NCBI GenBank assembly: GCA_964523905.1
Contig: CAZFYQ010000002.1
Coordinates: forward strand, 66,177 to 130,176
DNA length: 64,000 nucleotides
Direction of reading: 5' to 3'
DNA from: an uncultured Gammaproteobacteria bacterium
GTDB lineage: Bacteria > Patescibacteriota > Microgenomatia > Daviesbacterales > UBA10151
Part shown: positions 1,111-47,308 of the stretch, in pieces
How the letters are laid out: every line of letters starts with the position of its first letter
Numbering within the stretch: the stretch's first letter is position 1
Notes under the pieces: model-generated
Database searches by the model: none
Seen by the model: the letters and a program-made list of their open reading frames with translations, nothing else
Told to the model about the DNA's origin: nothing
Translations under genes and position numbers: made by a program

Positions 1111-1122
1111 GACAATATAATA

Positions 1123-3608: not shown

Positions 3609-3617
3609 GTAGTTCCA

Positions 3618-6739: not shown

Positions 6740-6805
6740 GAGGAAATTATATCCTATTCGCCACTTCGAAGCGTGGTTTGATCTCAACTGCTATAATACC
6801 CCCGT

Positions 6806-10385: not shown

Positions 10386-11386
10386 AGCTTCTAGTAACAG
10401 GCGGAGCCGGTTTTATTGGCTCTAATTTTATTCATTATTGGTTAAAAAAACACCCGGATGATCAGATTGTTAATCTTGATGCGTTAACTTATGCGGGTCA
10501 TTTAGAGTCGCTTAAGGATATTAAAGATAACCCCAACTACCAGTTTATTGAAGGTAGTATTACAAATTCTGAAGATGTAAAAAATGCCATGACCGGAGTA
10601 GATTTAGTAGTTCACTTTGCTGCTGAATCTCATGTGGATCGGTCAATTATAGATCCACTGGCTTTTGTTAAAACCAATGTTTTGGGAACTGCAGAGTTAC
10701 TTAATGCTGCCTTAAATGCCAAGGTAAAACGATTTCACCATATCAGTACTGATGAAGTTTTTGGAGAACTTGGTCCTAATGATCCCGCTTTTAATGAAAA
10801 TAGTCCATATAAAGGTCGTACGCCCTATGCTAGCTCAAAAGCAGGGTCAGATTTGTTAGTAAGAGCTTATTTTGAAACTTATGGACTGCCAGTGACTATT
10901 ACTAATTGTGCCAATAATTTTGGGCCATTTCATGATCCGGAAAAATTATTTCCCAGATTTATTACCAATTTATTAGAAAATAAAAAAGTGCCTTTAATGG
11001 GAAAAGGAGAAAACATAAGACCTTGGTTATATGTCGAAGATCATTGTCGAGGGATTGAGCTAGTAATTGAAAAAGGGGAACTGGGGGAAACCTATTGTAT
11101 CGGTGGTGAAGAACAAACTAATTTAGAGGTGACCCAAAAAATAATTAAACTATTAGGAAAAGATGAAAGTTTTATAGAGTATGTCGAACATCGTTTAGGT
11201 CATGATTTCCGTTATGCCCTGGATAGTTCTAAAATTATGGCATTGGGTTGGAAACCAGAGCATAATTTTGATGAATGGTTAGAAAAAACAGTAGAGTGGT
11301 ATAAACAAAATGAATGGTGGTGGAAACCGCTTAAAGAGGGTCGGCCAAATGTAGATGCTTCGGCCCAAAAATCTTATGCAAAATAA
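10382..11386 (+). CDS. rfbB: dTDP-glucose 4,6-dehydratase.
   Basis: It has the Rossmann motif TGGAGFIGSNF, plus YAGHLESL, TDEVFG and YASSKAGSD. It is 334 aa. Confidence 0.8.
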   Translation: MKLLVTGGAGFIGSNFIHYWLKKHPDDQIVNLDALTYAGHLESLKDIKDNPNYQFIEGSITNSEDVKNAMTGVDLVVHFAAESHVDRSIIDPLAFVKTNVLGTAELLNAALNAKVKRFHHISTDEVFGELGPNDPAFNENSPYKGRTPYASSKAGSDLLVRAYFETYGLPVTITNCANNFGPFHDPEKLFPRFITNLLENKKVPLMGKGENIRPWLYVEDHCRGIELVIEKGELGETYCIGGEEQTNLEVTQKIIKLLGKDESFIEYVEHRLGHDFRYALDSSKIMALGWKPEHNFDEWLEKTVEWYKQNEWWWKPLKEGRPNVDASAQKSYAK

Positions 11387-11918
11387 CTATATTAAAGAAA
11401 CTTCTATTCCAGGTTTATTAATTTTAGAACGACCGATTCATCAGGATGACCGCGGATTTTTCCGGGAACTGTTTCATTTAGATGAGTTAGAAGAAGCATC
11501 CGGAATTTCTTTTAAAGCAATTCAAATGAATCATTCTCATTCCGAGCCGGGAGTGCTTCGGGGAATCCATGCGGAGCAGTGGAATAAAATTATCTATCCG
11601 ATAAATGGAGCAGCCTTTTTAGCAATTGTTGATATTCGTCCTGACTCCCCTACTTTTAAAAAGGTGGAAACTTTTAATATTAATGACAATAACCGGATTG
11701 GTTTATTTATTCCCAATGGTTTGGCAAATTCTGTTTGCGTCACAGGTAAAACCGCTGTTGATTATGTTTATTTGGTAGATGCCTACTGGGATGGTTCTGA
11801 TACACGGGCCATTGCCTGGGATGATCCGGAGTTAAATATTGATTGGCCGATTAAAAATCCGATTCTGTCAGAAAGGGATAAGAATAACCCTAGACTTAGG
11901 GATTTATTTCCGCTATAG
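11376..11918 (+). CDS. rfbC: dTDP-4-dehydrorhamnose 3,5-epimerase.
   Basis: It has a cupin fold signature (IPGLLILERPIHQDDRGFFRELF). The likely ATG is at 11376, overlapping the rfbB stop. Confidence 0.75.
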   Translation: MQNNYIKETSIPGLLILERPIHQDDRGFFRELFHLDELEEASGISFKAIQMNHSHSEPGVLRGIHAEQWNKIIYPINGAAFLAIVDIRPDSPTFKKVETFNINDNNRIGLFIPNGLANSVCVTGKTAVDYVYLVDAYWDGSDTRAIAWDDPELNIDWPIKNPILSERDKNNPRLRDLFPL

Positions 11919-11927
11919 TATTTGAAA

Positions 11928-12938
11928 ATGGCTAAACGAGCTTTTATTACCGGTATCTCCGGACAAGACGGATCTTATCTTTCAGAATTGCTACTGGATA
12001 AGGGTTATGAAGTAGGTGGTTTAATGCGCCGCAATGCGGTGGGGGAATTGGGTAACATTGAACACATTAAAGAAGACATCAAGATCTATTATGGTGATTT
12101 ACAGTCTCCTGAATCAATTGCCTTGGCTTTGGTAGATTTTAAACCGGACGAAGTTTATAATTTGGCTTCCCTGTCATCCCCTTTTGCTTCTTTTAGCGAT
12201 CGATTTGCCTCAATTATGATTACTGGCGTGGGGGCTTTACATGTTTTTGAAAGAGCAAAACAAATTGTCCCGGAGGCTAAAATTTATCAGGCTTCCACCT
12301 CAGAAATGTTTGGTGCTCCTAAAAATATTCCTCAAGATGAAAATACACCGTTTAATCCAGCCAATCCATATGCAGCTTCTAAAGAATTTGCCCACCGGAT
12401 GGCAGTAATTTCCCGTCATGATAAAAAATCTCCCCAGTTTATTTCCTGTGGAATTTTGTTTAATCATGAATCACCCAGACGCGGTATTAATTTTGTCACC
12501 AGAAAAATAACTGCTGCAGTGGCTTGTATAAAAAATAATAAAAAAGAGGGAATTCCCTTAAATGAACTGGGAGACCCGATTATAAAAGACGGTAAATTAA
12601 AGTTGGGTGATTTAACTGCCAAAAGAGACTGGGGATTTTCTCCGGATTATGTGGAAGCAATGTGGTTGATGTTACAGCAAGACAAACCAGATGATTTTGT
12701 AGTTGCTACTGGTGAAATCCATACAGTGGGAGAATTTGCCAAAGAAGCTTTTGCAGTGGTGGGGCTTGATGCTGACGATTACATTGTAACTGATCCTAGT
12801 TTTGTGCCACCGGTTGCAACTGGCCCTCTTTGTGGAGATGCGTCTAAAGCTAAAAAGGTTTTGGGTTGGGAGTCAAAAACTAAGTTTCAAGATTTGGTAA
12901 AAATAATGGTCCATTCAGATTTAGCCAAATTCTCCTAA
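11928..12938 (+). CDS. gmd: GDP-mannose 4,6-dehydratase.
   Basis: ITGISGQDGSYLSELLLDKGYEVGGLMRR matches the Gmd N-terminus. YAASK is the SDR catalytic motif. Confidence 0.65.
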   Translation: MAKRAFITGISGQDGSYLSELLLDKGYEVGGLMRRNAVGELGNIEHIKEDIKIYYGDLQSPESIALALVDFKPDEVYNLASLSSPFASFSDRFASIMITGVGALHVFERAKQIVPEAKIYQASTSEMFGAPKNIPQDENTPFNPANPYAASKEFAHRMAVISRHDKKSPQFISCGILFNHESPRRGINFVTRKITAAVACIKNNKKEGIPLNELGDPIIKDGKLKLGDLTAKRDWGFSPDYVEAMWLMLQQDKPDDFVVATGEIHTVGEFAKEAFAVVGLDADDYIVTDPSFVPPVATGPLCGDASKAKKVLGWESKTKFQDLVKIMVHSDLAKFS

Positions 12939-13112: not shown

Positions 13113-14297
13113 ATGAAAAAAGTCTCAGTAGTGCTTCCTACATATAATGAAAAAGCCAACCTAGAATCGACCATTAACAAGATTTTTGCCCAGGAAAAGA
13201 ATTTACCAGGTTGGGAAATGCATATTATCGTCGCTGATGATATCCGATCTTCTGATGGTACAGACCTGATTGCCAAAAAGTTAGCAGCAAAAAATCCCCG
13301 GATTCATTTAATCAAAGTTGAACCGGGTTTAGGAGTTGGTTTAATTAAAGGGCACCAATATGCTATCGAGCATATTCATCCGGATGTGCTAGCACAACTG
13401 GATGCTGACGGTCAGGTAGAGGCAGATGTAGTAGTGCGCTTGGTCAAAGGAGTAGATCAGGGCTATGATTTTGTAATTGGTTCCCGGCATGTAGAAGGTG
13501 GAAAGAATAATTTAAGCTTGTCTCGCAGAATTTTTACTTTGGGGTCTTCCTGGGTTTGCCGGATTTTAATGGGACCAATGAATGTTAAAGAATTTTCCAA
13601 CTCGGCCAGGGCTTTTACACCGGCAATTTTTAATAAACTTAATTTAGATCGGCTTCCTTGGAAAGAAACCACTTTTATTGTCCAGCCGGCTTTTTTACAT
13701 GAAATGATGCTGGCAGGTGCTAAATATAAAGAAGTGCCCTTAATCTTTAAAAATCGTTTGGAAGGATATTCTAAAAACAAAGTTTTAAATTACACGTATG
13801 ACACCATTACTTATTGTTTTGATGCTTTTTTACACAGACTAGGTATTAATTTTCCTTTTTATAAATTTACTCATCGGATCAAAACCTTTGTTAAGTTTGC
13901 TATGGTTGGACTAATGGGCACGATTATTGATTTTTTGTTCTATAAAATTTTTATTAGGGCATTTGGACTGCCTCCGGCTACTTCCAAGGGATTCTCGGCT
14001 GAAATTGCCATCCTTTGTAATTTTGTCTTAAATAATTCCTGGACTTTTAAACATCGCAAAACCAAAACTAACACTTGGCAGAAACTGGGTATTTATAATT
14101 TGGTTAGTTTAGGAGGGTTAATAATTGGAGTATTCGTAGTTAAATATCTGCATAATCTTTATGGGGACGGTTCAATTCCTTTATTTGGTCATCCAGTGGC
14201 TTACAATAACTTTTACTTTTTAGCCACCATTCCTCCGGTGATGGTTTGGAACTTTGTAGTTAACCACTTTGTTACCTGGCGCCATCACAAGGAATGA
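13113..14297 (+). CDS. Polyprenyl-phosphate sugar synthase (GT2, Dpm1/GtrB-like) fused to a C-terminal GtrA-like 4-TM domain.
   Basis: The N-terminal half reads VVLPTYNEKANL...DDIRSSDGTD...QLDADGQV. The C-terminal segment FAMVGLMGTIIDFLFYKIF...AEIAILCNFVLNNSWTFKHR matches the GtrA family pattern. Confidence 0.7.
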   Translation: MKKVSVVLPTYNEKANLESTINKIFAQEKNLPGWEMHIIVADDIRSSDGTDLIAKKLAAKNPRIHLIKVEPGLGVGLIKGHQYAIEHIHPDVLAQLDADGQVEADVVVRLVKGVDQGYDFVIGSRHVEGGKNNLSLSRRIFTLGSSWVCRILMGPMNVKEFSNSARAFTPAIFNKLNLDRLPWKETTFIVQPAFLHEMMLAGAKYKEVPLIFKNRLEGYSKNKVLNYTYDTITYCFDAFLHRLGINFPFYKFTHRIKTFVKFAMVGLMGTIIDFLFYKIFIRAFGLPPATSKGFSAEIAILCNFVLNNSWTFKHRKTKTNTWQKLGIYNLVSLGGLIIGVFVVKYLHNLYGDGSIPLFGHPVAYNNFYFLATIPPVMVWNFVVNHFVTWRHHKE

Positions 14298-15412: not shown

Positions 15413-17037
15413 GTAAGCAATTGACTGTTTTAATACTAATTCTACTAACTTTGTTTGGTGGGTTTTTACGATTTTATAAAAACACGGAGAATCCCCCCGC
15501 ACTAAATATTGATGAAGTTTCTTTTGGTTATAGCGCTTATTCTATTTTAAAAACCGGCCGCGATGAAAATAATGTTTTTATGCCGGTATTCTTCAAATCC
15601 ACAGGAGATTATAAAAGTCCTGTTTTAACCTATTCATTGGTACCGGCGATTGCGGTATTTGGTTTAAATGAGTTTAGTGTCAGATTTACCACGGCTTTAG
15701 CAGGTACATTATCCATACCGGTATTTTTCCTTTTACTAATTACCTTACTCAAAAACCAAAAAATAGCTTTATACGGGACTATATTACTTACAATTTCTCC
15801 TTGGCATATTTATTATTCCAGGTATGCATCTGAAAGTGTGATTGGTATTTTTTTACTACTACTGGGGTTATGGTGCTTTCTGAAGATGTTTGAGGGAGGT
15901 AAATTCTGGGCAGTAGCAGCATCATTTATGCTTGCTTTATCAATGTATAGCTATCTTTCACCAAGATTATTTATTCCCTTATTTTTGCTGACTATTTTTC
16001 TAAACAAGGCCCGGCAATTAAAAGCTAAATCAGCAAATGTCTGGATATTTATTTTCACTATCCTAATATTAATTTCACCAATGGTCTTTTTGCTGATTTG
16101 GGGTGGTGCTAATAAAAGAGCCGGAATGGTTTTTCTATCTCAGGATATCGACTATACCAGATACGTCATACTTGATCATTCGCATCGTTTAGGTGAGAAT
16201 TTTTTACTATTTTTCTTCTGGGCTAAAAGATATTTAAATTACTTCCAACCGGATTTTTTATTCTCAACAGGATTGAATATGACTATGGCAGGTTCAGGAG
16301 GTTTAGGGGTGCTTTATCTTTTTGAATTACCATGGCTTTGTTTGGGGTTTTTAAAACTAGCTAAAAACAAATTTCCGGGTAAGTCAATTATTATCTATTG
16401 GATTTTACTAGGAATTATACCGGCAACTTTAGCAAATAATGAGCTTAGTTCATCGAGAACTATGTTAGTAGCGCCCGCACTAATTACAATAGTAGCAATC
16501 GGATTAAATTATTTCACAGAATTAATTACTTCAGTAAAAAAAACTGCCCTTAAGATAAGTATCATGCTAATCTATTCAATTTTTATATTAATCATTTTAC
16601 TTCAAGCAATATTAGTATTTGTGGTTCATTTTCCGATACAACAAGGCGAGGCATTCATGGAAGGCACCAAAGAGAGCGTGTTATATGCAATTAATAACAA
16701 GGATCAATACAAAGAAATAGTTTACGATCCTTTTCGGGGGATAGAGGCGCCTAATATTGTAAATATTCCCTATATGTATATTTTGTTTTATTCAAAATAT
16801 GATCCGGCCAAATTTCAAACCGAGCCAAAAATATCAATTAATGATTCCTTTCATTTTGATAAATACACCATCAGAAGTATTAACTGGAGAGAACATGCGG
16901 ACCGGGAAAGGAAAGGTACTTTATTTATTGGTAGCCCTTGGAGTTTACCGGAAAAGGATTTAAAAGATGCTAGGATTTTAAAGAAAATTTACTTAAGTAA
17001 TGGTAGCTTGGCTTTAATAATTGTCACACCCAATTAG
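15409..17037 (+). CDS. PMT/ArnT-like GT-C glycosyltransferase (GT39/GT83-type).
   Basis: The loop-1 motif is NIDEVSFGYSAYSILKTGRDENNVFMPVFF. The protein is polytopic and 542 aa. The same motif recurs in 7 paralogs. Confidence 0.65.
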   Translation: MSKQLTVLILILLTLFGGFLRFYKNTENPPALNIDEVSFGYSAYSILKTGRDENNVFMPVFFKSTGDYKSPVLTYSLVPAIAVFGLNEFSVRFTTALAGTLSIPVFFLLLITLLKNQKIALYGTILLTISPWHIYYSRYASESVIGIFLLLLGLWCFLKMFEGGKFWAVAASFMLALSMYSYLSPRLFIPLFLLTIFLNKARQLKAKSANVWIFIFTILILISPMVFLLIWGGANKRAGMVFLSQDIDYTRYVILDHSHRLGENFLLFFFWAKRYLNYFQPDFLFSTGLNMTMAGSGGLGVLYLFELPWLCLGFLKLAKNKFPGKSIIIYWILLGIIPATLANNELSSSRTMLVAPALITIVAIGLNYFTELITSVKKTALKISIMLIYSIFILIILLQAILVFVVHFPIQQGEAFMEGTKESVLYAINNKDQYKEIVYDPFRGIEAPNIVNIPYMYILFYSKYDPAKFQTEPKISINDSFHFDKYTIRSINWREHADRERKGTLFIGSPWSLPEKDLKDARILKKIYLSNGSLALIIVTPN

Positions 17038-18200
17038 TTAAATAAACTGACGTTAGGGATTGGAGCACTGTTAGCTAGGATAAAGTTTTGGGCGTATAAA
17101 TAGATGGCTACGGCAATAATCGGCAGAATAATTTTAAATTCCCTACTCGTTAATACTTTTTCAAAAGCAATTAAAACAAATGGGGTAATTGGTAAAATGT
17201 AACGGGAGACGTCACGATGGGCCACAAAAGCGGCGGCGGTTAAATAGGTCAACACAAAAATTGCCATTGGATATAATTTTTTCTTCCATAAAGTCACTCC
17301 GCCTAAAAAGCCTAAAATAAAAATATAAACAATATCCTCCAGCCAAATATCTCCCACCCAGAACTGGTTTTTGTTAAACACCTGAAAAGGTGGAAAAGTT
17401 AAGTGAATATTGTCTCCACTATGAAAGTAGGCCCAAAAATCTCCGTAACTTTGACTGAATAAATAGAATACTGCAAATAATCCTAGAGGAATTAGAAGAA
17501 GGGGAGAGTATTTTATATGGGTTTTCCAGGCTTTGCTAATAGTAAATGGTTTGTTAAGGAGTAATTGCCAATGAAAGTAAATTGCTAGAGCGATGAAAAG
17601 TAAAATCCCCGGGGGCCTGGTAACCTGTGCCAGTAAACCTGCTAACGCGCTATAAATTAAATAAGGGTATTTATTGGAATACTCAAACTTCATGAAAAAA
17701 TATACTGCCAGAATGGTAAAGAAAATAAAAGTTGGCTCAGATGCGCCCACACTATGGACAATTAACCAGCGGGCGGGTAGTAGCAGGAAGATAGTAGCAA
17801 GTAGTAAGGGATGATCGGATAGTTTAAAATCTTTGATTAAAAAGTAAAAGGCCCACACTGCCAAAATAGTAGAACCTAAAGTGATAAATAGCATTGATTT
17901 TAGGAATCCTAAAAAAGGTGCAAAAAGGGCAATTAATAAAGAAAACCCGGGAAAATGCGAGGCAAAGTAACTTGCCGGCAAAGATTGGGGAAGCTGGGCT
18001 ATTAAAGCCGAATTGTAAAAAGTTTTGGCAATAATTACATATTCCAAACCGTCAAAATTGCGATATATTGTGGCAAAGCCATTAGAAAAATTTAACCCCC
18101 AGAAATTTGGTAAAGCAAGTAGATGTGGTAGCCAAACTAAAAAAGTTACTGCTAAAACTAGTCCTAGTAAAATCCCCAGGTCTTTCGTTGTTTTGTGCAT
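17034..18200 (-). CDS. Polytopic membrane protein, putative GT-C mannosyltransferase-like (PIG-V/GT76-like).
   Basis: It is 388 aa with about 10 TM helices. The motif LLAQVTRPPGILLFIAL resembles 52125..53282 (AATRIFGILLLPAIL). Confidence 0.35.
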   Translation of the reverse strand: MHKTTKDLGILLGLVLAVTFLVWLPHLLALPNFWGLNFSNGFATIYRNFDGLEYVIIAKTFYNSALIAQLPQSLPASYFASHFPGFSLLIALFAPFLGFLKSMLFITLGSTILAVWAFYFLIKDFKLSDHPLLLATIFLLLPARWLIVHSVGASEPTFIFFTILAVYFFMKFEYSNKYPYLIYSALAGLLAQVTRPPGILLFIALAIYFHWQLLLNKPFTISKAWKTHIKYSPLLLIPLGLFAVFYLFSQSYGDFWAYFHSGDNIHLTFPPFQVFNKNQFWVGDIWLEDIVYIFILGFLGGVTLWKKKLYPMAIFVLTYLTAAAFVAHRDVSRYILPITPFVLIAFEKVLTSREFKIILPIIAVAIYLYAQNFILANSAPIPNVSLFN

Positions 18201-18225: not shown

Positions 18226-20358
18226 ATGATTAAAAACCTCTCGGTGTTTTTCCCGGTGTTTAATGAGGAAGGAAATATTGCTACCACGGTTGGTAAAGCG
18301 CTGGCTGTTTTGGAAAAATTAAACCTGGAACAATGTGAAGTAATTATCGTAAATGACGGCTCTACTGATGGAACCCAAAAAGTAGCCGATGAGTTGGCCA
18401 AGAAAAATTCCAGGGTGAGGGTGATTCATCATCCCAAAAATTTAGGCTATGGCGAGGCTTTAAAATCCGGTTTTTATAATGCCAAATATGAGGTAATTGT
18501 CTATACTGACGGTGATGGGCAGTTTGACTTTGCCGAAGTTTCTAAATTCCTGGAAAAAATTGAAACTGCAGATCTGGTGATTGGTCATCGCATCAAAAGA
18601 CAGGATCCACTTTTTCGGCTGTTATTTAAAGAAGGTTGGAAATTATCTTTGTTTGTAATTTTTAGATTAACTTTAAAAGATGTGGACTGTGGTTTTAAGA
18701 TGGTAAGACGCCAGGCTTTAGAAAAAATTTCTCACTTAGAATCTAGCCGGGGAGCGATGATCAATGCTGAACTGGCTATTAAAATTAAAAAAGCTCATTT
18801 AAGAACCGCTCAAGTGGGAGTTAATCATTATCCCAGGCTGTCTGGTAAACCAACTGGGGCCAATATTAATGTGATTTTTAAATCTTACTTAGATTTAGTG
18901 AAGTTATGGTGGAAATTAAAAACCGACAAAATGATTTCTGCCCTTATTATTTTGGTACTGATGCTGGCAGCTTTCCTGCGGCTTTACCAGATAGATCATT
19001 ATATGATCTTTCTGGGAGATGAAGGACGGGATGCGGTGATTGTGAAAGCGCTGGTGACAGGAGAGCATTATCCCCTAATTGGTCCACCTACATCAGTAGG
19101 AAATATTTATTTAGGACCAATGTATTACTACATGATGGCCATTCCAATGACCATTTTTTATCTAAATCCAGTGGCGGCATCAAGTATGGATGGGTTAATT
19201 GGAGTTTTTACTGTGGCTTTAATTTATCTTTTGGGGAAAATGTGGTTTGATAAAAAATCCGCTTTAGTGGCAGCTTTTCTATATGCCATTTCCCCTGTGA
19301 CCATCAGTTACAGCAATTTTTCCTGGAATCCCAATCCCCTGCCGTTTTTTTCCTTGATTTCTATTTTTAGTTTATACAAAATTCATCAAACCAAAAACTT
19401 TAATTGGCTGATATTAACCGGGTTGTCTTTGGCAGCGGCAGTGCAAATGCATTATCTGGCTTTGATTTTAATTCCGATTGCCGGGATACTTTGGTTAATG
19501 GAAATTATCCGCTACAAAAATTTAAATCATCTGATTTCCGGAACTTTGTTAGGGCTGGTGGCGTTTTTGCTTTTAATGTCTCCCCTGTTTTTGTTTGATT
19601 TAAAACATGACTTTATGAATGCCCGGTCAGTAAATCAGCTGTTTACAGGAACAACTTTTAAAGGAAATCTGCTGGATAATTTTTTAAGAATTCCTGATAT
19701 TTTTAACAATAAATTAATTGGCAGGTACATGGCCGGAGGAAATTTTTATCTGGCAGTAGTGATGTCAATTTTAGTAATTGCCGGGTTAATAGTTAACAGT
19801 GGTTGGCCTCTGTTAGCCTTAGGGATTTGGCTGGGGGTAGGGATTTTTTTGCTGTCTTTTTATCAGCAAAGTATTTATGATCATTACCTGGGATTTTTAA
19901 ATCCGGCACCATATCTTTTATTTGGATCACTTTTCTACAAAAGGAAATGGATGATGGCTTTGCCTTTGGCTGGACTACTACTGATATTAACCATTGTTAA
20001 TTTTCAAAAAAATCCTTTAAATAACCCTCCGAATAATCAGTTGCAAAGAACCAAAAATGTGGCTGGTTTTATCATCAGCAGGTCTGGGGAGCAGCCGTTT
20101 AATTTTGCTTTAATTGCCAAAAGCAATTATGATCCGGCTTATCAGTATTATTTAGATCTCTACGGACATAAGCCTTTGGTTTTGCCCACTGCAAAAGCTC
20201 AGCAATTATTTGTAGTGTGTGAAGATGCCCTGTGTGATCCAACACATAGTCCCAAATATGAAATCGCGGCCTTTGGCTATACAAAAATAGACTGGGAGCA
20301 GGATTTTGCCGGAGTTAAAATATACCGGCTGATTGCAAATCCCGGAGGTAAGCCTTGA
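18226..20358 (+). CDS. Fusion protein. The N-terminal part is a Dpm1/GtrB-like GT2 polyprenyl-phosphate sugar synthase. The C-terminal part is a GT-C (ArnT-like) membrane glycosyltransferase domain.
   Basis: Residues 1-230 read FFPVFNEEGNI...VNDGSTDGT...YTDGDGQF. Residues 235-710 are polytopic and carry the LGDEGRD loop motif. Confidence 0.65.
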   Translation: MIKNLSVFFPVFNEEGNIATTVGKALAVLEKLNLEQCEVIIVNDGSTDGTQKVADELAKKNSRVRVIHHPKNLGYGEALKSGFYNAKYEVIVYTDGDGQFDFAEVSKFLEKIETADLVIGHRIKRQDPLFRLLFKEGWKLSLFVIFRLTLKDVDCGFKMVRRQALEKISHLESSRGAMINAELAIKIKKAHLRTAQVGVNHYPRLSGKPTGANINVIFKSYLDLVKLWWKLKTDKMISALIILVLMLAAFLRLYQIDHYMIFLGDEGRDAVIVKALVTGEHYPLIGPPTSVGNIYLGPMYYYMMAIPMTIFYLNPVAASSMDGLIGVFTVALIYLLGKMWFDKKSALVAAFLYAISPVTISYSNFSWNPNPLPFFSLISIFSLYKIHQTKNFNWLILTGLSLAAAVQMHYLALILIPIAGILWLMEIIRYKNLNHLISGTLLGLVAFLLLMSPLFLFDLKHDFMNARSVNQLFTGTTFKGNLLDNFLRIPDIFNNKLIGRYMAGGNFYLAVVMSILVIAGLIVNSGWPLLALGIWLGVGIFLLSFYQQSIYDHYLGFLNPAPYLLFGSLFYKRKWMMALPLAGLLLILTIVNFQKNPLNNPPNNQLQRTKNVAGFIISRSGEQPFNFALIAKSNYDPAYQYYLDLYGHKPLVLPTAKAQQLFVVCEDALCDPTHSPKYEIAAFGYTKIDWEQDFAGVKIYRLIANPGGKP

Positions 20359-20430: not shown

Positions 20431-21153
20431 ATGACTAAATTATCAGTAGTAATACCTTCTTATAACGAATCGAAGAACTTAAAAAACGGATCTTTGGATC
20501 AGGTGAAAGATTATCTTAAACAAAGTAAATTAAGCTATGAAATAATTATAGTAGATGATGGTTCCACAGATGCCTCAGTGGATTTAATAAAAAAATACCC
20601 TTTTCGTTTAATTCAAAATTCTCATGGTGGTAAAGCCATGGCAGTAATGACCGGTATGGAAAAAGCGACTGGTGACATCGTGCTGTTTACTGACATGGAC
20701 CAAGCCACTCCAATTAATCAGCTGGATAAATTCCTACCCAAATTTGAGGAGGGTTTTGATATTGTGATTGGTTCCCGAAGTGGCAGAAAAGGCGCCCCTT
20801 TTATCCGTAAATTATCGGCTTGGGGATTTTCAGTTTTAAGACGACTTATTTTAGGACTGCCTTTTTCCGATACTCAATGTGGTTTCAAAGCTTTCGACCA
20901 AAAAGCTATTAAAAAAATTATTCCTAGAATCAAAGGGGAGTGGGGAGTACTTCATTCTAAAACAGGAGCAGTAAATGCTGGTTTTGATGTAGAACTTTTA
21001 TACCTAGCCAAAAAATATGGCTTTAAAATTGCCGAAGTCCCCGTAGAATGGAACTATGTTGACACCGAGCGCGTCCAAGTAGTCAAAGATGCCGCGGCCG
21101 CCATCTATGACATGTTCCGCATTAGAATTAATGATCTTAAAGGAAAATACTAG
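20431..21153 (+). CDS. GT2 polyprenyl-phosphate sugar synthase (Dpm1/GtrB-like).
   Basis: It reads VVIPSYNESKNL...IIIVDDGSTDAS...FTDMDQAT and is 240 aa. Confidence 0.7.
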   Translation: MTKLSVVIPSYNESKNLKNGSLDQVKDYLKQSKLSYEIIIVDDGSTDASVDLIKKYPFRLIQNSHGGKAMAVMTGMEKATGDIVLFTDMDQATPINQLDKFLPKFEEGFDIVIGSRSGRKGAPFIRKLSAWGFSVLRRLILGLPFSDTQCGFKAFDQKAIKKIIPRIKGEWGVLHSKTGAVNAGFDVELLYLAKKYGFKIAEVPVEWNYVDTERVQVVKDAAAAIYDMFRIRINDLKGKY

Positions 21154-21207: not shown

Positions 21208-22719
21208 GTGGATTTTGTACGCAAAAATATTCTAAGTATTTCTGTTCTGTTGGGTTTAATTGCTGCCTATTTTCTAATTCGTATTCCTCATTTAACCTTA
21301 CAGCCGATTTTTGCTGATGAGGCCATCTACATCCGCTGGGCTCAGGTTATGAAATCTGAACCTACTTTGCGCTTTATTTCTTTATCCGATGGCAAAACCC
21401 CCTTATTTATGTGGCTAATGATTCCTTTATTTAAAGTAATTCATGATCCTTTAATGGCCGGCCGATTTTTATCAGTGATTTCCGGTTTTTTTACCTTGAT
21501 CGGGGTACTTTTATTAACCCGTAAAGTATTTGGTAGAAATGCCGCATTTTGGGCAGGACTTTTATATGTAATTACACCATACACTGTATTTTTTGATAGG
21601 ATGGCGCTGGTTGATTCTATGGAGTCCACCTTTACTGTCTGGATAATTTATCTGGCAATTTTGGTGGTGCAAAAAATGCGCTGGGATTTGGCCATGATAC
21701 TGGGATATTTACTGGGTGGTGTAGTGTTAACCAAAACCCCGGGAATGTTAAACAGTTTAATACTGCCGGTCTCCATCTTCGGATTCACACGGATTAAAAC
21801 GGATAAATATCGATTGCTACGGCTACTGTTGTTGTGGGCAGTAGCAATTGCCATCGCCTTAGTCATGTATAACATGCTGCGCCTGGGTCCGAATTTTCAA
21901 TCCTTATCTTCCCGCAATGCTGATTATGTTTTCTCACCGTTTGAACTAATGGGTAGACCGCTTGATCCATTTATTCCCCATTTTCATGACATTTCCGATT
22001 GGTTTCCCAAATTACTAACTTGGCCGGTGTTGGGACTTTTGGCAATTGGTTTATGGTTTCTTATTAAGAGTAAAAACAAACTGGGTTGGATGGTACTTTT
22101 GTGGGCATTGATACCAATGTTATTGTCAATGGCGTTTTTAAAAACCTTTACTGCTAGATATTTATTAACGTCTATTGCTCCGCTTTTGGTAATCGCCAGT
22201 TTTGGTGCTGCGGAATTACTGAAGATGATAAAGATACCAAATGTCGCAAAAGTCGCTGTAGTCGCAATAGTCGTGGGAGTATTGCCGCTGTGGTTTGATT
22301 TACAGTTAATTAACAATCCTCCCCCACCCAGTTTACCTAGAGAAGAAAGCCGGGGATATTTTGAAGAGTGGACTGCAGGATATGGTTTTAAACAAATTGC
22401 CAATTATTTAATTGCCCAAAAAGCTAAAGGATCGGTAGTGGTCGGGACTGATGGATATTTTGGTACTTTGCCGGATGGCTTATATATTTATTTGGATAAA
22501 GCTAATATCTCAATAGTTGGTGGGACCGGTACTATTTCTGCGAAGCTTCGCAACTCTGCCAAAGATCACCAAACCTATTATGTTGGTAATAAATTGGAAG
22601 TAGCAAAATCTGCTAAAAATTTATCTGAAATTATGGAATTTCCTAAAACTAGATCGTTAGATACTGGTTTACAAGATGCCACAGTGTTATGGCAAGTTTT
22701 ACCAATCAATGAAAAATAA
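21208..22719 (+). CDS. Divergent PMT/ArnT-like GT-C membrane glycosyltransferase with a GTG start.
   Basis: The DE loop is IFADEAIYIRWAQ. The protein is polytopic and 503 aa. Confidence 0.45.
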   Translation: MDFVRKNILSISVLLGLIAAYFLIRIPHLTLQPIFADEAIYIRWAQVMKSEPTLRFISLSDGKTPLFMWLMIPLFKVIHDPLMAGRFLSVISGFFTLIGVLLLTRKVFGRNAAFWAGLLYVITPYTVFFDRMALVDSMESTFTVWIIYLAILVVQKMRWDLAMILGYLLGGVVLTKTPGMLNSLILPVSIFGFTRIKTDKYRLLRLLLLWAVAIAIALVMYNMLRLGPNFQSLSSRNADYVFSPFELMGRPLDPFIPHFHDISDWFPKLLTWPVLGLLAIGLWFLIKSKNKLGWMVLLWALIPMLLSMAFLKTFTARYLLTSIAPLLVIASFGAAELLKMIKIPNVAKVAVVAIVVGVLPLWFDLQLINNPPPPSLPREESRGYFEEWTAGYGFKQIANYLIAQKAKGSVVVGTDGYFGTLPDGLYIYLDKANISIVGGTGTISAKLRNSAKDHQTYYVGNKLEVAKSAKNLSEIMEFPKTRSLDTGLQDATVLWQVLPINEK

Positions 22720-26051: not shown

Positions 26052-27480
26052 AGTGGGGGATGGTGTTAAAAAAAAGATTGCTAAGGGGTTTTTAAGTTTA
26101 ACTTTTCGAAAAGCAATTTTACTGGCCATTAATTATTTAACCATTAATATTGTGCTGGCGCGGATTTTGCCGGTTTCCACAATTGGGGTATTTAATATTG
26201 CCTCCTCAATTTTAGCTTTTTTTGCATTTTTTTCTGATATTGGTTTGGCCGCCTCTTTAATCCAAAAAAAAGAAATATCTCTGGAAGATATTAAAACCAC
26301 CTTTACTATCCAGACTATCTTAGCTTTTTCAATCAGCATTATTGTGTTTTTAGCTGCTCCTTATTTTGCTAATTTATATAATCTGGATTTTCAAGGCATG
26401 TGGTTAGTTCGCACTTTAGCCCTAAGTTTTTTCCTAGTTTCTTTAAAAGTAGTGCCCTCGGTTTTGCTGGAGCGGGACTTAAGATTTCAGCCACTGGTAG
26501 CAATTGAAGTAGCAGAAACAATTGTTTTTAATTTGATTTTAACTTTTCTGGTTTTCTCGGGTTTATCAGTTTCTTCTTTTAGTTATGCCACTGCTGCCAG
26601 AAGTATCATTGGAGTGATCTTAATCTATTCCTGGGCACCGTGGAAAGTTTCTTTAGGAGTTTCCAGACAATCAATCAGAGCTTTGCTTAGTTTTGGTTTG
26701 CCGTTTCAGCTAAATTCTTTACTGGCTTTACTAAAAGATCGCTTAGTTCCTCTGGTGATTGCCCGGATGGTTGGTAGTGTGGGAGTAGGACTAATTACCT
26801 GGTCTCAAAGTTTGGCTTTCCTACCTTTAGAGGTGATGAATATTATGACTCGGGTGACTTTTCCGGCTTTTTCCCGCTTGGCTGATAACAAAGAGCACTT
26901 AAGGGAGACTTTAGAAGATTCCTTGTTTGCAACCGGTGTGGTTTTATATCCAATGTTATTTGGATTAAATGCGGTCACTCATAGTTTAATAACGCATGTA
27001 GTATCCAGTAAGTGGCAGCTTGCAGAACCCTTAGTCCACTTGTTTTCAATCGGTGCTTTTTTTGCCACCTTATCCTCTCCTTTTACCAATTTTTTAAACG
27101 CCATTGGCAAGGTCAAAACTACTTTAAAATTAATGGTGATGTGGACGGTTTTAGAATGGTTACTGACTCCGGTATTAACTGTCTACTACGGTTTTTTAGG
27201 TGCCGGAATGGCCTCGGCTTTAATTTCTGTGACCTCAATTATTCCTTTGTTAATTATTAAGAAAATGATGAAAATTGATGTGTTAAAAAATATTTGGCAG
27301 CCGATTTTTGCCTCAGTGGTAATGGGGTTACTGGTTTATATCTTAAGTCCAATGGTAGTTTATAATTTTTTAAGTTTACTTATTCTGGTAGTTATTAGTG
27401 GGCTTTTTTATGTTGGTTTAATGTTACTTTTGGCTAAAAATAGAATGGTGAAATATTATCAAAGTTTTAAACATGGTTAA
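26023..27480 (+). CDS. Wzx-like oligosaccharide flippase / polysaccharide biosynthesis protein (MOP superfamily).
   Basis: It has about 12-14 TM helices and the N-terminal motif KGFLSLTFRKAILLAINYL. The start is uncertain. An in-frame GTG at 26053 lies just after the upstream stop. Confidence 0.55.
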   Translation: MLITGRGLIKVGDGVKKKIAKGFLSLTFRKAILLAINYLTINIVLARILPVSTIGVFNIASSILAFFAFFSDIGLAASLIQKKEISLEDIKTTFTIQTILAFSISIIVFLAAPYFANLYNLDFQGMWLVRTLALSFFLVSLKVVPSVLLERDLRFQPLVAIEVAETIVFNLILTFLVFSGLSVSSFSYATAARSIIGVILIYSWAPWKVSLGVSRQSIRALLSFGLPFQLNSLLALLKDRLVPLVIARMVGSVGVGLITWSQSLAFLPLEVMNIMTRVTFPAFSRLADNKEHLRETLEDSLFATGVVLYPMLFGLNAVTHSLITHVVSSKWQLAEPLVHLFSIGAFFATLSSPFTNFLNAIGKVKTTLKLMVMWTVLEWLLTPVLTVYYGFLGAGMASALISVTSIIPLLIIKKMMKIDVLKNIWQPIFASVVMGLLVYILSPMVVYNFLSLLILVVISGLFYVGLMLLLAKNRMVKYYQSFKHG

Positions 27481-30400: not shown

Positions 30401-30895
30401 GTAGGTTTTTTACTGTGTTTCGTAATTTTAACCTTAACACCAATTAATGCTTGGACTACTGCTAAGGGTTACCTAAACGAGCAACCTCATGCTTATATCA
30501 GTAATGATGAGTTAAGTGCTTTACAATTTCTTAAGGATCAGCCGGATGGAGTGGTACTGACCTATCCTTATGATAGTAATCTAAAAGGCGGTATTGCCCA
30601 GCCCTGGCCACTGGTTGCCTATGACAGCACGGCTTATGTAGCAGCTTTTAGTAATAAACCAAGTTTTCTGGAAGATGAAGCCCAAAACCAGATTTTATTA
30701 ACTAATAATCAAAAGAGATTAATTGCATCAAAAGATTTTTTTACCCAGCCAAATCCTGATTTAAATTTTCTAAGGAAAAATCAGATTAAATACATTTATC
30801 TTCCCAAAATATATAATGTAAGGGTTGATCAAAGTCAGGGTAGCATTAAAACTTTGCTGGAAAATAGCCAGGTAGTTATTTATGAAATCAATTAG
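27473..30895 (+). CDS. Very large protein (family B). It has a signal peptide, an extracytoplasmic domain of about 480 aa and a polytopic domain of about 650 aa.
   Basis: It is 1140 aa. The membrane domain block HDGMWHLALINQLLKQVPPQNPIFA is shared with 34397..36376 (HDGLWHISLMQEYQKGYPLQNPVFA). Confidence 0.5.
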   Translation: MVKLIALILTIFAFTTPVFASGNNFVNVVNPVRGGDFWSITNQQPETVVEGQIQILNKLNLPATWLLRFDALENQKIITDLNSPIDQKGLFLEVTPTWAKEAGVTYQTGPSWHDAGSALLTGYSPSDRIKLIDSAFNKFKQTVGFYPKAVGAWWIDAYSLDYMQKKYGITSSMIVSDQYSTDNYQIWGQYFSTPYYPALKNALHPAQTVDNKIPVVMLQWAPRDPVNSYGNGVFESTFSVQPNDYIDYHKLDAKYFTNLLDLYQSQKFNKFSEVVVGLENTYQWSNYSAEYQNQMQVLANQRNSGKISLITMDGFASFYKQAFPDLSPTQIIVGSDPLGTDKKVVWYMNPYYRAGWFYNNEGALFRDIRQYVDGQEELCFSTRCSTVNFATSATRVLDEVSFGQKLLLDSGKISNFDVTQNADKFVLTYQNEAGKQREVGFLPRDIEIDGKVSSIDTTILNATKNSTSKSPTVNQTISGPFIFSVSSTILESLKFLLFITFGMVIPGIVFTRLAINQKLGSLNRLFLSAVSGLVVFTLIFYLLAEFKLTVLIYVYLILSLLIFLWFYVKDTLSMALPKIKSIYDLGLVIIVTLGTIFQVLPTFQSGLRFGYGMGLWGPNTHDGMWHLALINQLLKQVPPQNPIFARTILKNYHYLYDLLVAATVSISKVPATDLVFRFYPILFSLLLGIGSYYLISRLFNQKSLIKIKLISLFSLYFIYFAGSFGWIVEYIHQKHWGGESAFWANQSISFNLNPPFAISLVIMIALLQLLPYLSTKNRGLIILLSIISGALISFKAYAGILVLSTLLTVAILKRSMSHLSVFVLSFLLSALLFLSNFSVGQSLIMVSPFWFVNSMIDAPDRVGWYRLSLTRNVGLATGNWFKFIGAEIISLVIFIAGNLGTRVFALISLIKLKAIWKNNHYLFLLILGLFSLLIPIIFIQAGNPWNTIQFIYYFLYLAALINGVVMVKMLTKFNKVVGFLLCFVILTLTPINAWTTAKGYLNEQPHAYISNDELSALQFLKDQPDGVVLTYPYDSNLKGGIAQPWPLVAYDSTAYVAAFSNKPSFLEDEAQNQILLTNNQKRLIASKDFFTQPNPDLNFLRKNQIKYIYLPKIYNVRVDQSQGSIKTLLENSQVVIYEIN

Positions 30896-36376: not shown

Positions 36377-36464
36377 ATTCACATTATGCCAGAAAGGATC
36401 GTTAGAAACTAGCTGAAGGTGGATTTGATTTTACATACACCCCCTAAATTAGTAAGATAAGACT

Positions 36465-46654: not shown

Positions 46655-46655
46655 G

Positions 46656-47282: not shown

Positions 47283-47308
47283 CCAGATCTTCATGCTATG
47301 ATTATGTT

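What the first reader, a model, noticed from the sequence alone, without database searches (positions are those of the whole stretch)
18226..20358. Single polypeptide fusing a polyprenyl-phosphate sugar synthase (GT2) to a GT-C transferase
The first 230 residues or so form a complete Dpm1/GtrB-like GT2 (FFPVFNEEGNI, VNDGSTDGT, YTDGDGQF). The remaining 480 residues form a polytopic domain with an LGDEGRD periplasmic-loop motif typical of ArnT-like GT-C enzymes. The fusion would couple cytoplasmic synthesis of a lipid-linked monosaccharide to its use on the outer face within one protein. This is a rare architecture. It supports the functional pairing of GT2 and GT-C genes throughout the island.
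Basis: seen in the sequence. Interest (0 to 1): 0.6.

Follow-up and report, generated by a model that had tools for sequence, protein, structure and literature searches.

The report
Fused lipid-sugar synthase and GT-C transferase
One 710-residue membrane protein of an uncultured Microgenomates (Patescibacteria) bacterium joins the enzyme that loads a sugar onto a lipid carrier inside the cell to the type of enzyme that uses such lipid-linked sugars outside the cell; it is a real, conserved fusion of two genes that are adjacent and separate in relatives, so it is a tidy natural variant of a known pathway rather than a new kind of system.

Summary
Window 18226..20358 (+) is one uninterrupted 710-aa ORF.

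- **N-terminal part:** residues 1-231 are a GtrB/ArnC/DPM1-type polyprenyl-phosphate glycosyltransferase (GT2). It has the DxD motif, the acceptor-phosphate arginines and both juxtamembrane helices, but no transmembrane helices of its own.
- **C-terminal part:** residues 235-710 are a GT-C enzyme. They match Pfam PMT_2/PMT and the ArnT fold, and carry an invariant R252...D265-E266 first outer loop and a C-terminal soluble domain.
- **Not an artefact:** more than 120 protein clusters at 60-72% identity (Daviesbacteria and other Microgenomates) keep the same full-length architecture. More distant fused forms (32-40% identity) include a Beckwithbacteria protein.
- **Origin:** in syntenic loci of relatives the two halves are separate genes. 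Their stop and start codons overlap (ATGA) or lie 1 nt apart, and in the window that junction reads in frame. Fused forms are scattered among split forms in a GT-C tree. Other GT-C partners and a reverse-order fusion also exist.
- **Most likely function:** make a polyprenyl-phosphate monosaccharide in the cytoplasm and use it outside, with GT-C helix 1 standing in for the missing GT2 anchor. The sugar, the acceptor and the flipping step are unknown.

Nine full-text searches found no published description of the fusion. I rate it a new variant of a known kind, of moderate interest.

The parts
18226..20358 (+). Whole fused gene, 710 aa plus stop
   Evidence: Single ORF. Both Pfam domains are present. 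AlphaFold2 model has pLDDT 89.3 and pTM 0.85. Full-length homologues are conserved.
18226..18864 (+). GT-A fold catalytic domain of a polyprenyl-phosphate glycosyltransferase (residues 1-213). It includes D44, the DxD motif D95/D97, Q99, R122, R125, JM1 helix 129-146, D152 and R204.
   Evidence: Glycos_transf_2 E 3.5e-31. PDB sequence hits to ArnC, DPMS and GtrB. Foldseek hits ArnC at E 1.8e-12, then GtrB and DPMS. D95/D97 and R122/R125 align with GtrB D94/D96 and R122/R125 (functional residues per PMC4728340). All are invariant in 63 homologues.
18865..18918 (+). Amphipathic juxtamembrane helix JM2 (residues 214-231, NINVIFKSYLDLVKLWWKL). Split GT2 orthologues end just after it.
   Evidence: Helix 214-231 in the model. 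V216, S220, D223, L224, W228 and W229 are invariant. The split GT2 proteins align up to residues 230-233.
18919..18933 (+). Fusion junction K232-T-D-K-M236. The ATG at 18931-18933 sits where the GT-C start codon lies in split orthologues.
   Evidence: Junction DNA compared in window, L016 and L017 and in L018-L020. Split forms read ...AGATGATT...TTATGAAA, TAAcATG and TAAtATG. The window reads AAA ATG ATT in frame. pLDDT is 89-97 across the junction.
18928..20007 (+). GT-C transmembrane module (residues 235-594): TM1 at 235-253, then the first outer loop with R252 and D265-E266 (LGDEGRD, nt 19012-19032), WNPNP at 367-371, QMHY at 407-410 and DHY at 552-554.
   Evidence: PMT and PMT_2 above cutoff. 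Foldseek hits ArnT 5f15 at E 1.4e-8 over 583 columns with TMt 0.59, then STT3/AglB. R252, D265, G267, H409 and Y554 are invariant across 43 family members down to 29% identity.
20008..20355 (+). C-terminal soluble alpha/beta domain (residues 595-710) with a conserved Cys pair, C665 and C670. It is inferred to lie outside the membrane.
   Evidence: Secondary structure at 605-704 in the model. C665, E666 and C670 are invariant in close homologues, and C665 and C670 are nearly invariant in the wider family. The outside location is my inference from about 11 TM helices and the charge distribution.
20431..21153 (+). Context: stand-alone TM-less GT2 (240 aa), a paralogue 31% identical to the fused GT2 domain
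21208..22719 (+). Context: stand-alone PMT_2 GT-C (503 aa), only weakly similar to the fused GT-C module
17034..18200 (-). Context: divergently transcribed 388-aa polytopic protein, conserved next to both fused and split forms. Probably a short divergent GT-C.
   Evidence: No Pfam hit here. It is 59% identical to the L016 neighbour, which carries PMT_2 in precomputed annotation. It is 65% and 48% identical to the L018 and L019 neighbours.
13113..14297 (+). Context: GT2 fused to a GtrA_DPMS_TM domain (394 aa). This is the only GtrA-type (candidate flippase) domain in the window, and it is conserved in syntenic loci.

Best explanation
This is a genuine single-chain fusion of two enzymes that normally work as separate partners in extracytoplasmic glycosylation.

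- **Step 1, cytoplasmic face.** The GT2 domain (residues 1-231) is inferred to transfer one sugar from a nucleotide sugar to polyprenyl (undecaprenyl-type) phosphate, as GtrB, ArnC and DPM1 do.
- **Step 2, flipping.** The lipid-linked sugar must cross the membrane. The agent is unknown. Candidates are the GtrA-domain protein at 13113, the MOP-family proteins at 26023 and 53279, or the GT-C module itself.
- **Step 3, outer face.** The GT-C module (residues 235-710) is inferred to transfer the sugar to an unidentified envelope glycan or protein, using the Asp265-Glu266 loop.

This GT2 subfamily has no membrane helices. In the fusion its juxtamembrane helix JM2 runs straight into GT-C helix 1, so the GT-C module also anchors and positions the synthase. 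That recreates the JM2-TM1 arrangement of GtrB.

The fusion arose from an adjacent, translationally coupled gene pair by a small frame change that removed the overlapping stop/start (ATGA). It fixes the two activities at 1:1 stoichiometry and co-localises them.

Shown here: the single ORF, its conservation, both folds, conservation of catalytic residues, and the split orthologues with their junctions. Inferred: the enzymatic activities, the topology, use of the GT2 product by the attached GT-C, and the anchoring role.
For: - **Single ORF:**
- **Domains:**
- **GT2 half is of the polyprenyl-phosphate type:** its best PDB sequence and fold matches are exclusively ArnC, GtrB and DPMS. D95/D97 and R122/R125 align to GtrB residues shown essential by mutagenesis and are invariant. 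JM1- and JM2-like helices are present.
- **GT-C half:** ArnT-fold match over 583 columns. R252, D265, H409 and Y554 are invariant in a family alignment reaching 29% identity.
- **Conservation:** 120 of the 120 best clusters are full length and two-domain. Fused representatives extend down to 32% identity, including Beckwithbacteria.
- **Split orthologues:** they occur in syntenic loci with the same flanking genes. GT2 stop and GT-C start overlap or lie 1 nt apart in 5 of 5 loci carrying the same GT-C family.
- **Independent pairings:** the same GT2 subfamily is joined to other GT-C partners and in reverse order.
- **Model confidence:** the junction is modelled at pLDDT 89-97 and pTM is 0.85.
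Against: - No activity, sugar, acceptor or lipid has been determined.
- No named NCBIfam family is reached by either half; all scores are below the curated cutoffs.
- The C-terminal half has no significant PDB sequence hit. The best is Pmt2 at E 0.033 with a profile.
- Physical fusion does not prove that the GT-C uses the product of its own GT2. The island has many more GT-C genes than polyprenyl-phosphate GT2 genes, so donors are probably shared.
- The flipping step is unexplained.
- The closest named family of the C-terminal half is Agl23, which is described as flippase-associated.
- Topology is inferred from the model and from charges, not predicted with a dedicated tool.
Confidence: 0.72

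Rival explanations
1. The C-terminal module is mainly a translocator (scramblase or flippase) of the polyprenyl-phosphate sugar made by the N-terminal domain, like haloarchaeal Agl23 working with the Dol-P-hexose synthase Agl22. On this reading the protein is a synthase-flippase, and one of the many other GT-C paralogues performs the transfer.
For: TIGR03663 (Agl23, 'flippase activity-associated protein') is the only NCBIfam hit on the C-terminal half (E 6.3e-14) and the best named family for 32 of 43 family members. The N-terminal half also hits the haloarchaeal dolichyl-phosphate hexose transferase model NF041391, a 213-position profile. Purified Agl23 translocates a lipid-linked glycan in proteoliposomes and rescues yeast rft1-delta (PMC11182771). 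The island contains at least 13 other GT-C genes that could act as transferases.
Against: All scores are far below the TIGR03663 cutoff (54 against 126 bits), so the module is not a member of that family. The residues that are invariant (R252, D265-E266, H409) sit where GT-C transferases keep their catalytic loop. A conserved extracytoplasmic C-terminal domain with a Cys pair fits acceptor binding better than pure flipping. A GtrA-type domain is conserved in the cluster and could serve as the flippase.
Confidence: 0.13
2. The fusion serves only to tether a membrane-less GT2 to the membrane, the role DPM3 plays for human DPM1. The attached GT-C has no preference for that GT2's product, and the lipid-linked sugar enters a common pool used by several GT-C paralogues.
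For: The GT2 subfamily lacks TM helices, and split members end right after JM2. The same GT2 subfamily is paired or fused with different GT-C subfamilies. GT-C genes greatly outnumber polyprenyl-phosphate GT2 genes in the island.
Against: Within this family the two halves diverge in step across the split pairs: GT2 45-57% and GT-C 40-52% identity to the query. They stay adjacent with overlapping stop/start codons, which is typical of obligate partners. The GT-C catalytic-loop residues remain invariant, so the module is more than an anchor.
Confidence: 0.1
3. The single ORF is an assembly or sequencing artefact, or a pseudogene-like accidental read-through of two genes.
For: The split form is only one small indel away. 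The source is a metagenome-assembled genome.
Against: The identical protein is held under two sources, NCBI and a Logan assembly. These may derive from the same reads, so this is not independent proof. The decisive point is that at least 120 distinct clusters at 60-72% identity keep the same uninterrupted architecture, and the junction residue K235 is invariant. More distant fused forms also exist.
Confidence: 0.02
4. The GT2 domain is an ordinary GT2 acting on a lipid-diphosphate-linked or soluble acceptor, not on polyprenyl monophosphate.
For: No equivalog-level family assignment was obtained. NCBIfam hits include PgaC, EpsD and TuaG at lower scores.
Against: The top fold and sequence neighbours are all polyprenyl-phosphate GT2 enzymes, ahead of other GT2s by about five orders of magnitude in E-value. 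R122 and R125, which GtrB needs for the acceptor phosphate, and both juxtamembrane helices are conserved.
Confidence: 0.03

Closest known systems
Gtr three-component glycosylation systems (GtrA flippase, GtrB polyprenyl-phosphate GT2, GtrC-type GT-C) and their Gram-positive counterparts (CsbB/YfhO, GtlA/GtlB, GacI/GacL, PgfS/PgfM)
   Same: The logic is the same: a GT2 makes a polyprenyl-phosphate monosaccharide in the cytoplasm and a GT-C enzyme uses it outside. The GT2 half shares fold, DxD motif, acceptor arginines and JM helices with GtrB.
   Different: Here the two enzymes are one polypeptide. The GT2 has no TM helices of its own. No GtrA component is part of the fusion. None of the papers I searched or read describes such a fusion.
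ArnC / ArnT (lipid A aminoarabinose pathway)
   Same: These are the best structural matches for both halves: ArnC for residues 1 to about 330 (E 1.8e-12) and ArnT for the C-terminal module (E 1.4e-8, 583 columns). ArnT also has a C-terminal periplasmic domain.
   Different: ArnC and ArnT are separate proteins. Sequence identity is only 12-22%. The ArnC NCBIfam score of 57 is far below its cutoff of 529. Nothing suggests aminoarabinose or lipid A in this organism.
Eukaryotic and actinobacterial DPM1 (Ppm1) with PMT protein O-mannosyltransferases
   Same: Human-type DPM1 is likewise a TM-less GT2 that depends on a partner for membrane attachment (for the multi-chain DPMS; the DPM3 tethering role is my own knowledge). 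The GT-C module matches Pfam PMT and PMT_2. Its loop-1 pattern, Arg then Asp-Glu 13 residues later, matches my memory of the PMT loop-1 motif; only the weak Pmt2 hit touches on this.
   Different: No MIR domain was found. The only PDB sequence hit to Pmt2 is weak (E 0.033). From my own knowledge, M. tuberculosis Ppm1 is a precedent for a polyprenyl-phosphate GT2 fused to a membrane protein, but its partner domain is an acyltransferase-type membrane domain, not a GT-C.
Haloarcula hispanica Agl22 / Agl23
   Same: Both halves give their closest or near-closest NCBIfam hits to haloarchaeal models: NF041391 dolichyl-phosphate hexose transferase (a short 213-position profile) and TIGR03663 Agl23. 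Agl22 and Agl23 act in the synthesis and use of lipid-linked hexose (title of Lu et al. 2020, cited).
   Different: All scores are below the family cutoffs, so neither half is a member. Agl22 and Agl23 are separate archaeal proteins. Agl23 is described as a flippase, whereas the module here keeps all hallmarks of a GT-C transferase.

Membership tests
Polyprenyl-phosphate glycosyltransferases (PI-GT: GtrB / ArnC / DPMS, CAZy GT2) | GT-A fold with DxD metal/nucleotide motif | tested here: met
   Glycos_transf_2 E 3.5e-31. D95-G-D97 aligns with GtrB D94/D96 and DPMS DAD and is invariant.
Polyprenyl-phosphate glycosyltransferases (PI-GT: GtrB / ArnC / DPMS, CAZy GT2) | Basic residues that bind the acceptor phosphate (GtrB R122, R125, R200) and the catalytic Asp (D157) | tested here: met
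   R122 and R125 align directly and are invariant. D152 aligns with the conserved Asp of ArnC and DPMS. The R204-to-R200 equivalence is inferred, because it was not covered by an alignment.
Polyprenyl-phosphate glycosyltransferases (PI-GT: GtrB / ArnC / DPMS, CAZy GT2) | Two amphipathic juxtamembrane helices (JM1 internal, JM2 preceding TM1) | tested here: met
   Helices 129-146 and 214-231 in the model. These positions are conserved. The feature definition comes from PMC4728340.
Polyprenyl-phosphate glycosyltransferases (PI-GT: GtrB / ArnC / DPMS, CAZy GT2) | Own C-terminal transmembrane helices (2 in GtrB and ArnC, 4 in archaeal DPMS) | tested here: not met
   The GT2 part ends at JM2. The next helix is TM1 of the GT-C module. 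Split orthologues are 224-241 aa with no TM helices. This resembles the TM-less DPM1 subclass.
Polyprenyl-phosphate glycosyltransferases (PI-GT: GtrB / ArnC / DPMS, CAZy GT2) | Transfers a monosaccharide from a nucleotide sugar to polyprenyl phosphate | not testable with these tools
   This needs an enzyme assay.
GT-C glycosyltransferases of the PMT / ArnT / STT3 type | Polytopic GT-C fold | tested here: met
   Foldseek hits ArnT 5f15 at E 1.4e-8 (583 columns, TMt 0.59) and 5ezm, then STT3/AglB. PMT_2 scores 48.1 bits against a cutoff of 26.1, and PMT scores 41 against 22.7.
GT-C glycosyltransferases of the PMT / ArnT / STT3 type | Conserved acidic residue(s) in the first extracytoplasmic loop just after TM1 | tested here: met
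   D265 is invariant and E266 is at least 90% conserved in 63 close homologues. D265 is also invariant across 43 family members down to 29% identity. It lies at the start of helix 265-279, after TM1 at 235-253.
GT-C glycosyltransferases of the PMT / ArnT / STT3 type | N-terminus cytoplasmic and catalytic loop outside, which here puts the GT2 domain inside | tested here: inconclusive
   This is consistent with the charge distribution (37 K+R before TM1, 2 in loop 255-322) and with a conserved Cys pair in the C-terminal domain. No dedicated topology predictor or experiment was available.
Protein O-mannosyltransferases proper (GT39) | MIR domain in the large luminal loop | tested here: not met
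   There is no MIR hit in the Pfam scan at E up to 1. I therefore do not file it as a true PMT.
TIGR03663 (Agl23, flippase activity-associated protein) | Score at or above the curated cutoff of 126.25 bits | tested here: not met
   The full protein scores 51.8 bits. The best score among 43 family members is 54.1 bits, and 32 of the 43 hit the model weakly.
Gtr-type three-component system | Dedicated GtrA-family flippase component | tested here: inconclusive
   The fusion contains no GtrA domain. A GtrA_DPMS_TM domain is conserved in the cluster but is fused to another GT2 (13113..14297). In L018 it occurs as a stand-alone 184-aa protein. Whether it serves this pair is unknown.

The most novel reading that the evidence does not exclude
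The fused protein is a self-contained 'make, flip and transfer' machine. On this reading the GT-C module, a distant relative of the flippase-active Agl23, itself moves the polyprenyl-phosphate sugar made by its own GT2 domain across the membrane and then transfers it, so no GtrA-type flippase is needed. If true, it would be a one-protein experimental handle on how polyprenyl-phosphate monosaccharides cross membranes, which has not been settled biochemically for Gtr-type systems or for Dol-P-mannose.
Probability: 0.12. Interest if true: 0.8.

Novelty: new variant of a known kind. Interest (0 to 1): 0.42.

Why it matters
Gene fusions are classical evidence that two proteins act together. Here, matched fused and split orthologues with an identifiable junction argue that a TM-less polyprenyl-phosphate GT2 and its GT-C partner form a physical unit. 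That is usually only assumed for Gtr-, Arn- and DPM/PMT-type pathways.

The fusion also offers a practical target, because both steps sit in a single stable chain suitable for structural work. It could be used to ask how the lipid-linked sugar gets from the inner-leaflet active site to the outer-leaflet one.

The locus also documents how much coding capacity these small-genome Patescibacteria devote to surface glycosylation: at least 14 GT-C genes in 64 kb. None of this changes the known chemistry, and the architecture already sits unremarked in public protein databases, so the finding is of moderate interest.

Tried and rejected
- **Artefact hypothesis:** rejected on conservation.
- **Downstream pair as a recent duplicate:** I asked whether the unfused pair at 20431/21208 is a recent duplicate of the fusion. 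It is not. The GT2s are 31% identical and the GT-Cs barely alignable.
- **L003, L005 and L010:** I first took these as split orthologues. Their GT2 is related (42%), but the downstream 568-aa GT-C belongs to another subfamily (27% over 246 residues). They show pairing, not orthology. True split orthologues came from L016-L020.
- **PDB sequence searches for the C-terminal half:** nothing significant, either with the single sequence or with a 43-sequence profile (best Pmt2, E 0.033).
- **Genome-contig scan:** with a single protein it reached only close relatives. It returned some short contigs labelled Clostridia, Gammaproteobacteria or Pseudomonadales. I did not resolve whether these are mis-binned. 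In L012 the matching region does not sit in one clean ORF.
- **NJ tree:** it has no support values and short internal branches, so '8 fusion or fission events' is indicative only. P0124, a truncated fused protein, was scored as split.
- **Literature:** nine full-text searches found no description of a natural GT2-GT-C fusion. Subscription journals are largely not covered, and the Agl22/Agl23 paper could not be read.
- **Sugar specificity:** it could not be inferred, because all NCBIfam equivalog scores are far below their cutoffs.
Full report
**1. The observation**

Window 18226..20358 on the + strand is one ATG-initiated ORF of 710 aa without internal stops. Pfam places Glycos_transf_2 on residues 6-168 (E 3.5e-31), PMT on 246-434 (2.2e-10) and PMT_2 on 298-453 (2e-12). 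All are above their gathering scores.

**2. Is the fusion real?**

A search of 5.8 billion proteins found 945 clusters with E below 1e-10. The best 120 are all 706-740 aa, cover 98-100% of the query at 60-72% identity and carry both Pfam domains. The named ones come from Candidatus Daviesbacteria, the Microgenomates group and Patescibacteria. The identical protein is held under NCBI and under a Logan assembly.

In a 63-sequence alignment the mean column identity is 70%, and the junction residue K235 is invariant. A missed stop or frameshift is excluded for practical purposes.

**3. The N-terminal half**

Sequence search of the PDB hits only polyprenyl-phosphate GT2 enzymes at the top: ArnC, Pyrococcus DPMS and Synechocystis GtrB. 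An AlphaFold2 model built from the 63-sequence alignment is confident (pLDDT 89.3, pTM 0.85). Its best Foldseek matches in the PDB are ArnC (E 1.8e-12), GtrB and DPMS. Ordinary GT2 enzymes score about five orders of magnitude weaker.

The GtrB structure paper names D94, D96, R122, D157 and R200 as active-site residues. [quoted passage not shown] Here D95/D97 and R122/R125 align with GtrB D94/D96 and R122/R125 and are invariant. D152 aligns with the conserved Asp of ArnC and DPMS. Helices 129-146 and 214-231 occupy the JM1 and JM2 positions.

What is missing is any transmembrane helix belonging to the GT2. After JM2 there is a four-residue link, and then comes helix 235-253, which is TM1 of the GT-C module.

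**4. The C-terminal half**

- **Fold and sequence.** Foldseek aligns 583 columns with ArnT (5f15, E 1.4e-8, TM-score 0.59 on the target), followed by STT3 and AglB oligosaccharyltransferases. There is no significant PDB sequence hit. A 43-sequence profile reaches only yeast Pmt2 at E 0.033.
- **Conserved residues.** Across 43 family members down to 29% identity the invariant residues are R252, D265, G267, G286, P287, G292, P298, H409, P453 and Y554. R268, D269, W367-N368-P369, Q407, C665 and C670 are nearly invariant. D265-E266 lie at the start of the first helix after TM1, where GT-C enzymes keep their catalytic acidic residues. The Arg-to-Asp-Glu spacing of 13 residues matches the PMT loop-1 motif as I remember it.
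- **Not a true PMT.** No MIR domain is present.
- **Topology.** My reading of the model helices and charges gives about 11 TM helices with the N-terminus inside. The 116-residue C-terminal alpha/beta domain, with its conserved Cys pair, would then lie outside. This is an inference, not a prediction from a dedicated tool.
- **Closest named family.** The best NCBIfam family is TIGR03663 (Agl23), at 52-54 bits against a cutoff of 126. It is the best hit for 32 of 43 family members, and none reaches membership.

**5. Where the fusion came from**

An exhaustive HMMER search of 1.84 billion representative proteins returned three kinds of relatives among the best 150:

- 8 full-length fused proteins, down to 32% identity;
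- 122 stand-alone GT-C proteins of about 480-530 aa matching residues ~235-705;
- stand-alone GT2 proteins of 228-241 aa matching residues 2-231 at 44-57% identity.

One fused representative is a Candidatus Beckwithbacteria protein (UniRef100_A0A2H0W9T3).

Looking up the contigs of split forms shows that they are orthologous pairs in the same gene order as the window. L016 has GT2+GtrA, a reverse-strand membrane protein, a 224-aa GT2, the 513-aa GT-C and then a 247-aa GT2. L018 and L019 are similar. The divergent upstream neighbour is 48-65% identical to the window's 388-aa protein.

| Locus | GT2 identity to query | GT-C identity to query | Junction |
|---|---|---|---|
| L016 | 50% | 42% | ATGA overlap |
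| L017 | 57% | 52% (partial ORF) | ATGA overlap |
| L018 | 56% | 48% | TAAcATG, 1-nt spacer |
| L019 | 55% | 40% | TAAtATG, 1-nt spacer |
| L020 | 45% | 47% (partial ORF) | ATGA overlap |

Identities are and the junctions. In the window the same place reads AAA ATG ATT in frame, with M236 where the GT-C start codon used to be. A one-nucleotide frame change therefore converts one form into the other.

In a neighbour-joining tree of the GT-C module (124 sequences, no support values) the fused forms are scattered among split ones. Parsimony gives a split root and about eight changes. This suggests repeated fusion or fission but does not prove it.

The same GT2 subfamily is also found in other arrangements:

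- coupled by an ATGA overlap to a different GT-C subfamily (L003, L005 and L010);
- fused to other PMT_2 modules (P0204, P0233);
- fused in reverse order, GT-C then GT2 (P0262);
- preceded by an overlapping GT-C gene (L021).

**6. Mechanism**

The best-supported reading is the known two-step pathway carried out by one chain. The GT2 domain makes a polyprenyl-phosphate monosaccharide on the cytoplasmic face. The lipid-linked sugar is flipped. The GT-C module then transfers the sugar to an envelope acceptor outside.

The fusion adds fixed stoichiometry and co-localisation. Because this GT2 subfamily has no TM helix, it also adds membrane anchoring. JM2 continues into GT-C TM1, which mimics the JM2-TM1 unit of GtrB.

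The activities, the sugar, the acceptor and the flipping agent are all inferred or unknown. Candidate flippases in the window are the GtrA_DPMS_TM domain fused to another GT2 (13113..14297; conserved in syntenic loci) and two MOP-family proteins (26023 and 53279).

**7. Rivals**

- **Synthase-flippase.** The most interesting rival is that the C-terminal module is, or is also, the flippase. Its closest named relatives are Agl23 proteins. Purified Haloarcula Agl23 translocates lipid-linked glycans in proteoliposomes and works with the Dol-P-hexose synthase Agl22 (PMC11182771). Against a pure flippase role are the sub-threshold scores, the invariant catalytic-loop residues and the conserved external domain.
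- **Tether only.** A second rival is that the GT-C merely tethers the GT2 and the product enters a shared pool. This fits the excess of GT-C genes over GT2 genes. It is weakened by the tight, co-diverging pairing.
- **Artefact or ordinary GT2.** Both readings are poorly supported.

**8. Comparison with known systems and novelty**

The protein works like the GtrB/GtrC, ArnC/ArnT, DPM1/PMT and Agl22/Agl23 pairs. It passes the tests for the polyprenyl-phosphate GT2 class except for lacking its own TM helices. It passes the tests for the GT-C fold class. It fails membership of true PMTs (no MIR domain) and of TIGR03663 (score below cutoff).

Nine full-text searches found no description of a natural GT2-GT-C fusion. 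The architecture is nevertheless present, uncommented, in public databases.

I classify it as a new variant of a known kind. It is of moderate interest as a natural 'Rosetta-stone' fusion and as a possible one-chain system for studying how lipid-linked monosaccharides pass from synthase to transferase.

**9. Context**

About 55 kb of the window (roughly 9.3-63 kb) is a glycan-assembly island. It contains:

- rmlA, rmlB and rmlC, a GDP-mannose-dehydratase-like gene and further epimerase/dehydratase genes;
- three polyprenyl-phosphate-type GT2 genes: 13113 and 20431, assigned by architecture and similarity, plus the one studied here;
- at least 14 GT-C paralogues of the PMT_2, PTPS_related, GT87-like and PIG-V-like kinds;
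- several GT2 and GT4 genes, a methyltransferase and two MOP flippases.

Noticed in passing
window 14294-53282 (ORFs at 14294, 15409, 18226, 21208, 22676, 24615, 30882, 32504, 40340, 41832, 43391, 44999, 47309, 48655, 52125): The density of GT-C-type membrane glycosyltransferase paralogues is very high: at least 14 in about 40 kb, of the PMT_2, PTPS_related, GT87-like and PIG-V-like kinds. Six lie in a near-continuous run at 40340-50301, interrupted only by a cyclase-family gene (46656-47282). That is a lot for a small-genome Patescibacteria organism. The syntenic Daviesbacteria locus L014 shows a similar run.
   Followed up: partly
window 27473-30895 (+), 1140 aa; 34397-36382 (-), 661 aa; 39232-40371 (+), 379 aa: Three large ORFs inside the glycosylation island have no Pfam family at E below 1e-3. 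The 1140-aa protein overlaps the upstream MOP flippase gene by 8 nt and the downstream GT-C gene by 14 nt, so it may be co-transcribed with them. It could be an acceptor, a polymerase or a surface protein.
   Followed up: no
window 17034-18200 (-), 388 aa: This polytopic protein is divergently transcribed from the fusion gene and conserved at the same place next to both fused and split forms (48-65% identity). It has no Pfam hit here, but its L016 and L019 orthologues carry PMT_2 in precomputed annotation. It is probably a short, divergent GT-C and may be a functional partner of the pair.
   Followed up: partly
window 11355-12938 compared with L014 1343-3838: The rhamnose gene set here runs rmlA (9354), rmlB (10382), rmlC (11355) and then directly a GDP-mannose-dehydratase-like gene (11922). 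The syntenic Daviesbacteria locus has an RmlD-like reductase between rmlC and that gene. An rmlD equivalent may lie elsewhere. Candidates with RmlD_sub_bind hits are at 57459 and 58522(-).
   Followed up: no
P0262 (673 aa, JGI contig of 2159 bp); L021 1272-3717: A reverse-order fusion exists, with PMT_2 at residues 67-217 followed by the same GT2 subfamily at 430-655. A matching split arrangement also exists, in which a PTPS_related GT-C gene overlaps the start of the GT2 gene by 8 nt. This implies a GT-C whose C-terminus is cytoplasmic.
   Followed up: partly
P0233 (1032 aa), P0202 (647 aa), P0204 (684 aa): The same TM-less GT2 subfamily is fused to other C-terminal modules. P0233 has PMT_2/TMEM260-like plus about 400 extra residues. 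P0204 has another PMT_2. P0202 has a module with no Pfam hit.
   Followed up: partly
window 13113-14297 (+), 394 aa; L018 541-1095: A second kind of fusion lies in the same cluster: a GT2 joined to a GtrA_DPMS_TM domain, the architecture of archaeal DPMS. In L018 the GtrA domain is instead a stand-alone 184-aa protein. The candidate flippase component therefore also alternates between fused and free forms.
   Followed up: partly
L002, L008, L010, L011, L012: Contigs carrying close relatives of this Patescibacteria-type gene are labelled uncultured Gammaproteobacteria, Pseudomonadales or Clostridia in their MAG records. These are probably binning errors. Horizontal transfer was not excluded.
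   Followed up: no
window 346-5170 (-): A cell-division and wall-hydrolase block lies upstream of the island: FtsE-like ABC ATPase (4490-5170), FtsX (3618-4490), a PcsB-like coiled-coil protein with a weak C39-like peptidase match (2388-3608) and an M23 peptidase (1123-2388).
   Followed up: no
window 5663-6787 (-), 374 aa, TTG start: This is a peptide chain release factor (PCRF + RF-1 domains) whose longest ORF starts at TTG. I did not check whether it is an RF2 with the usual programmed +1 frameshift.
   Followed up: no
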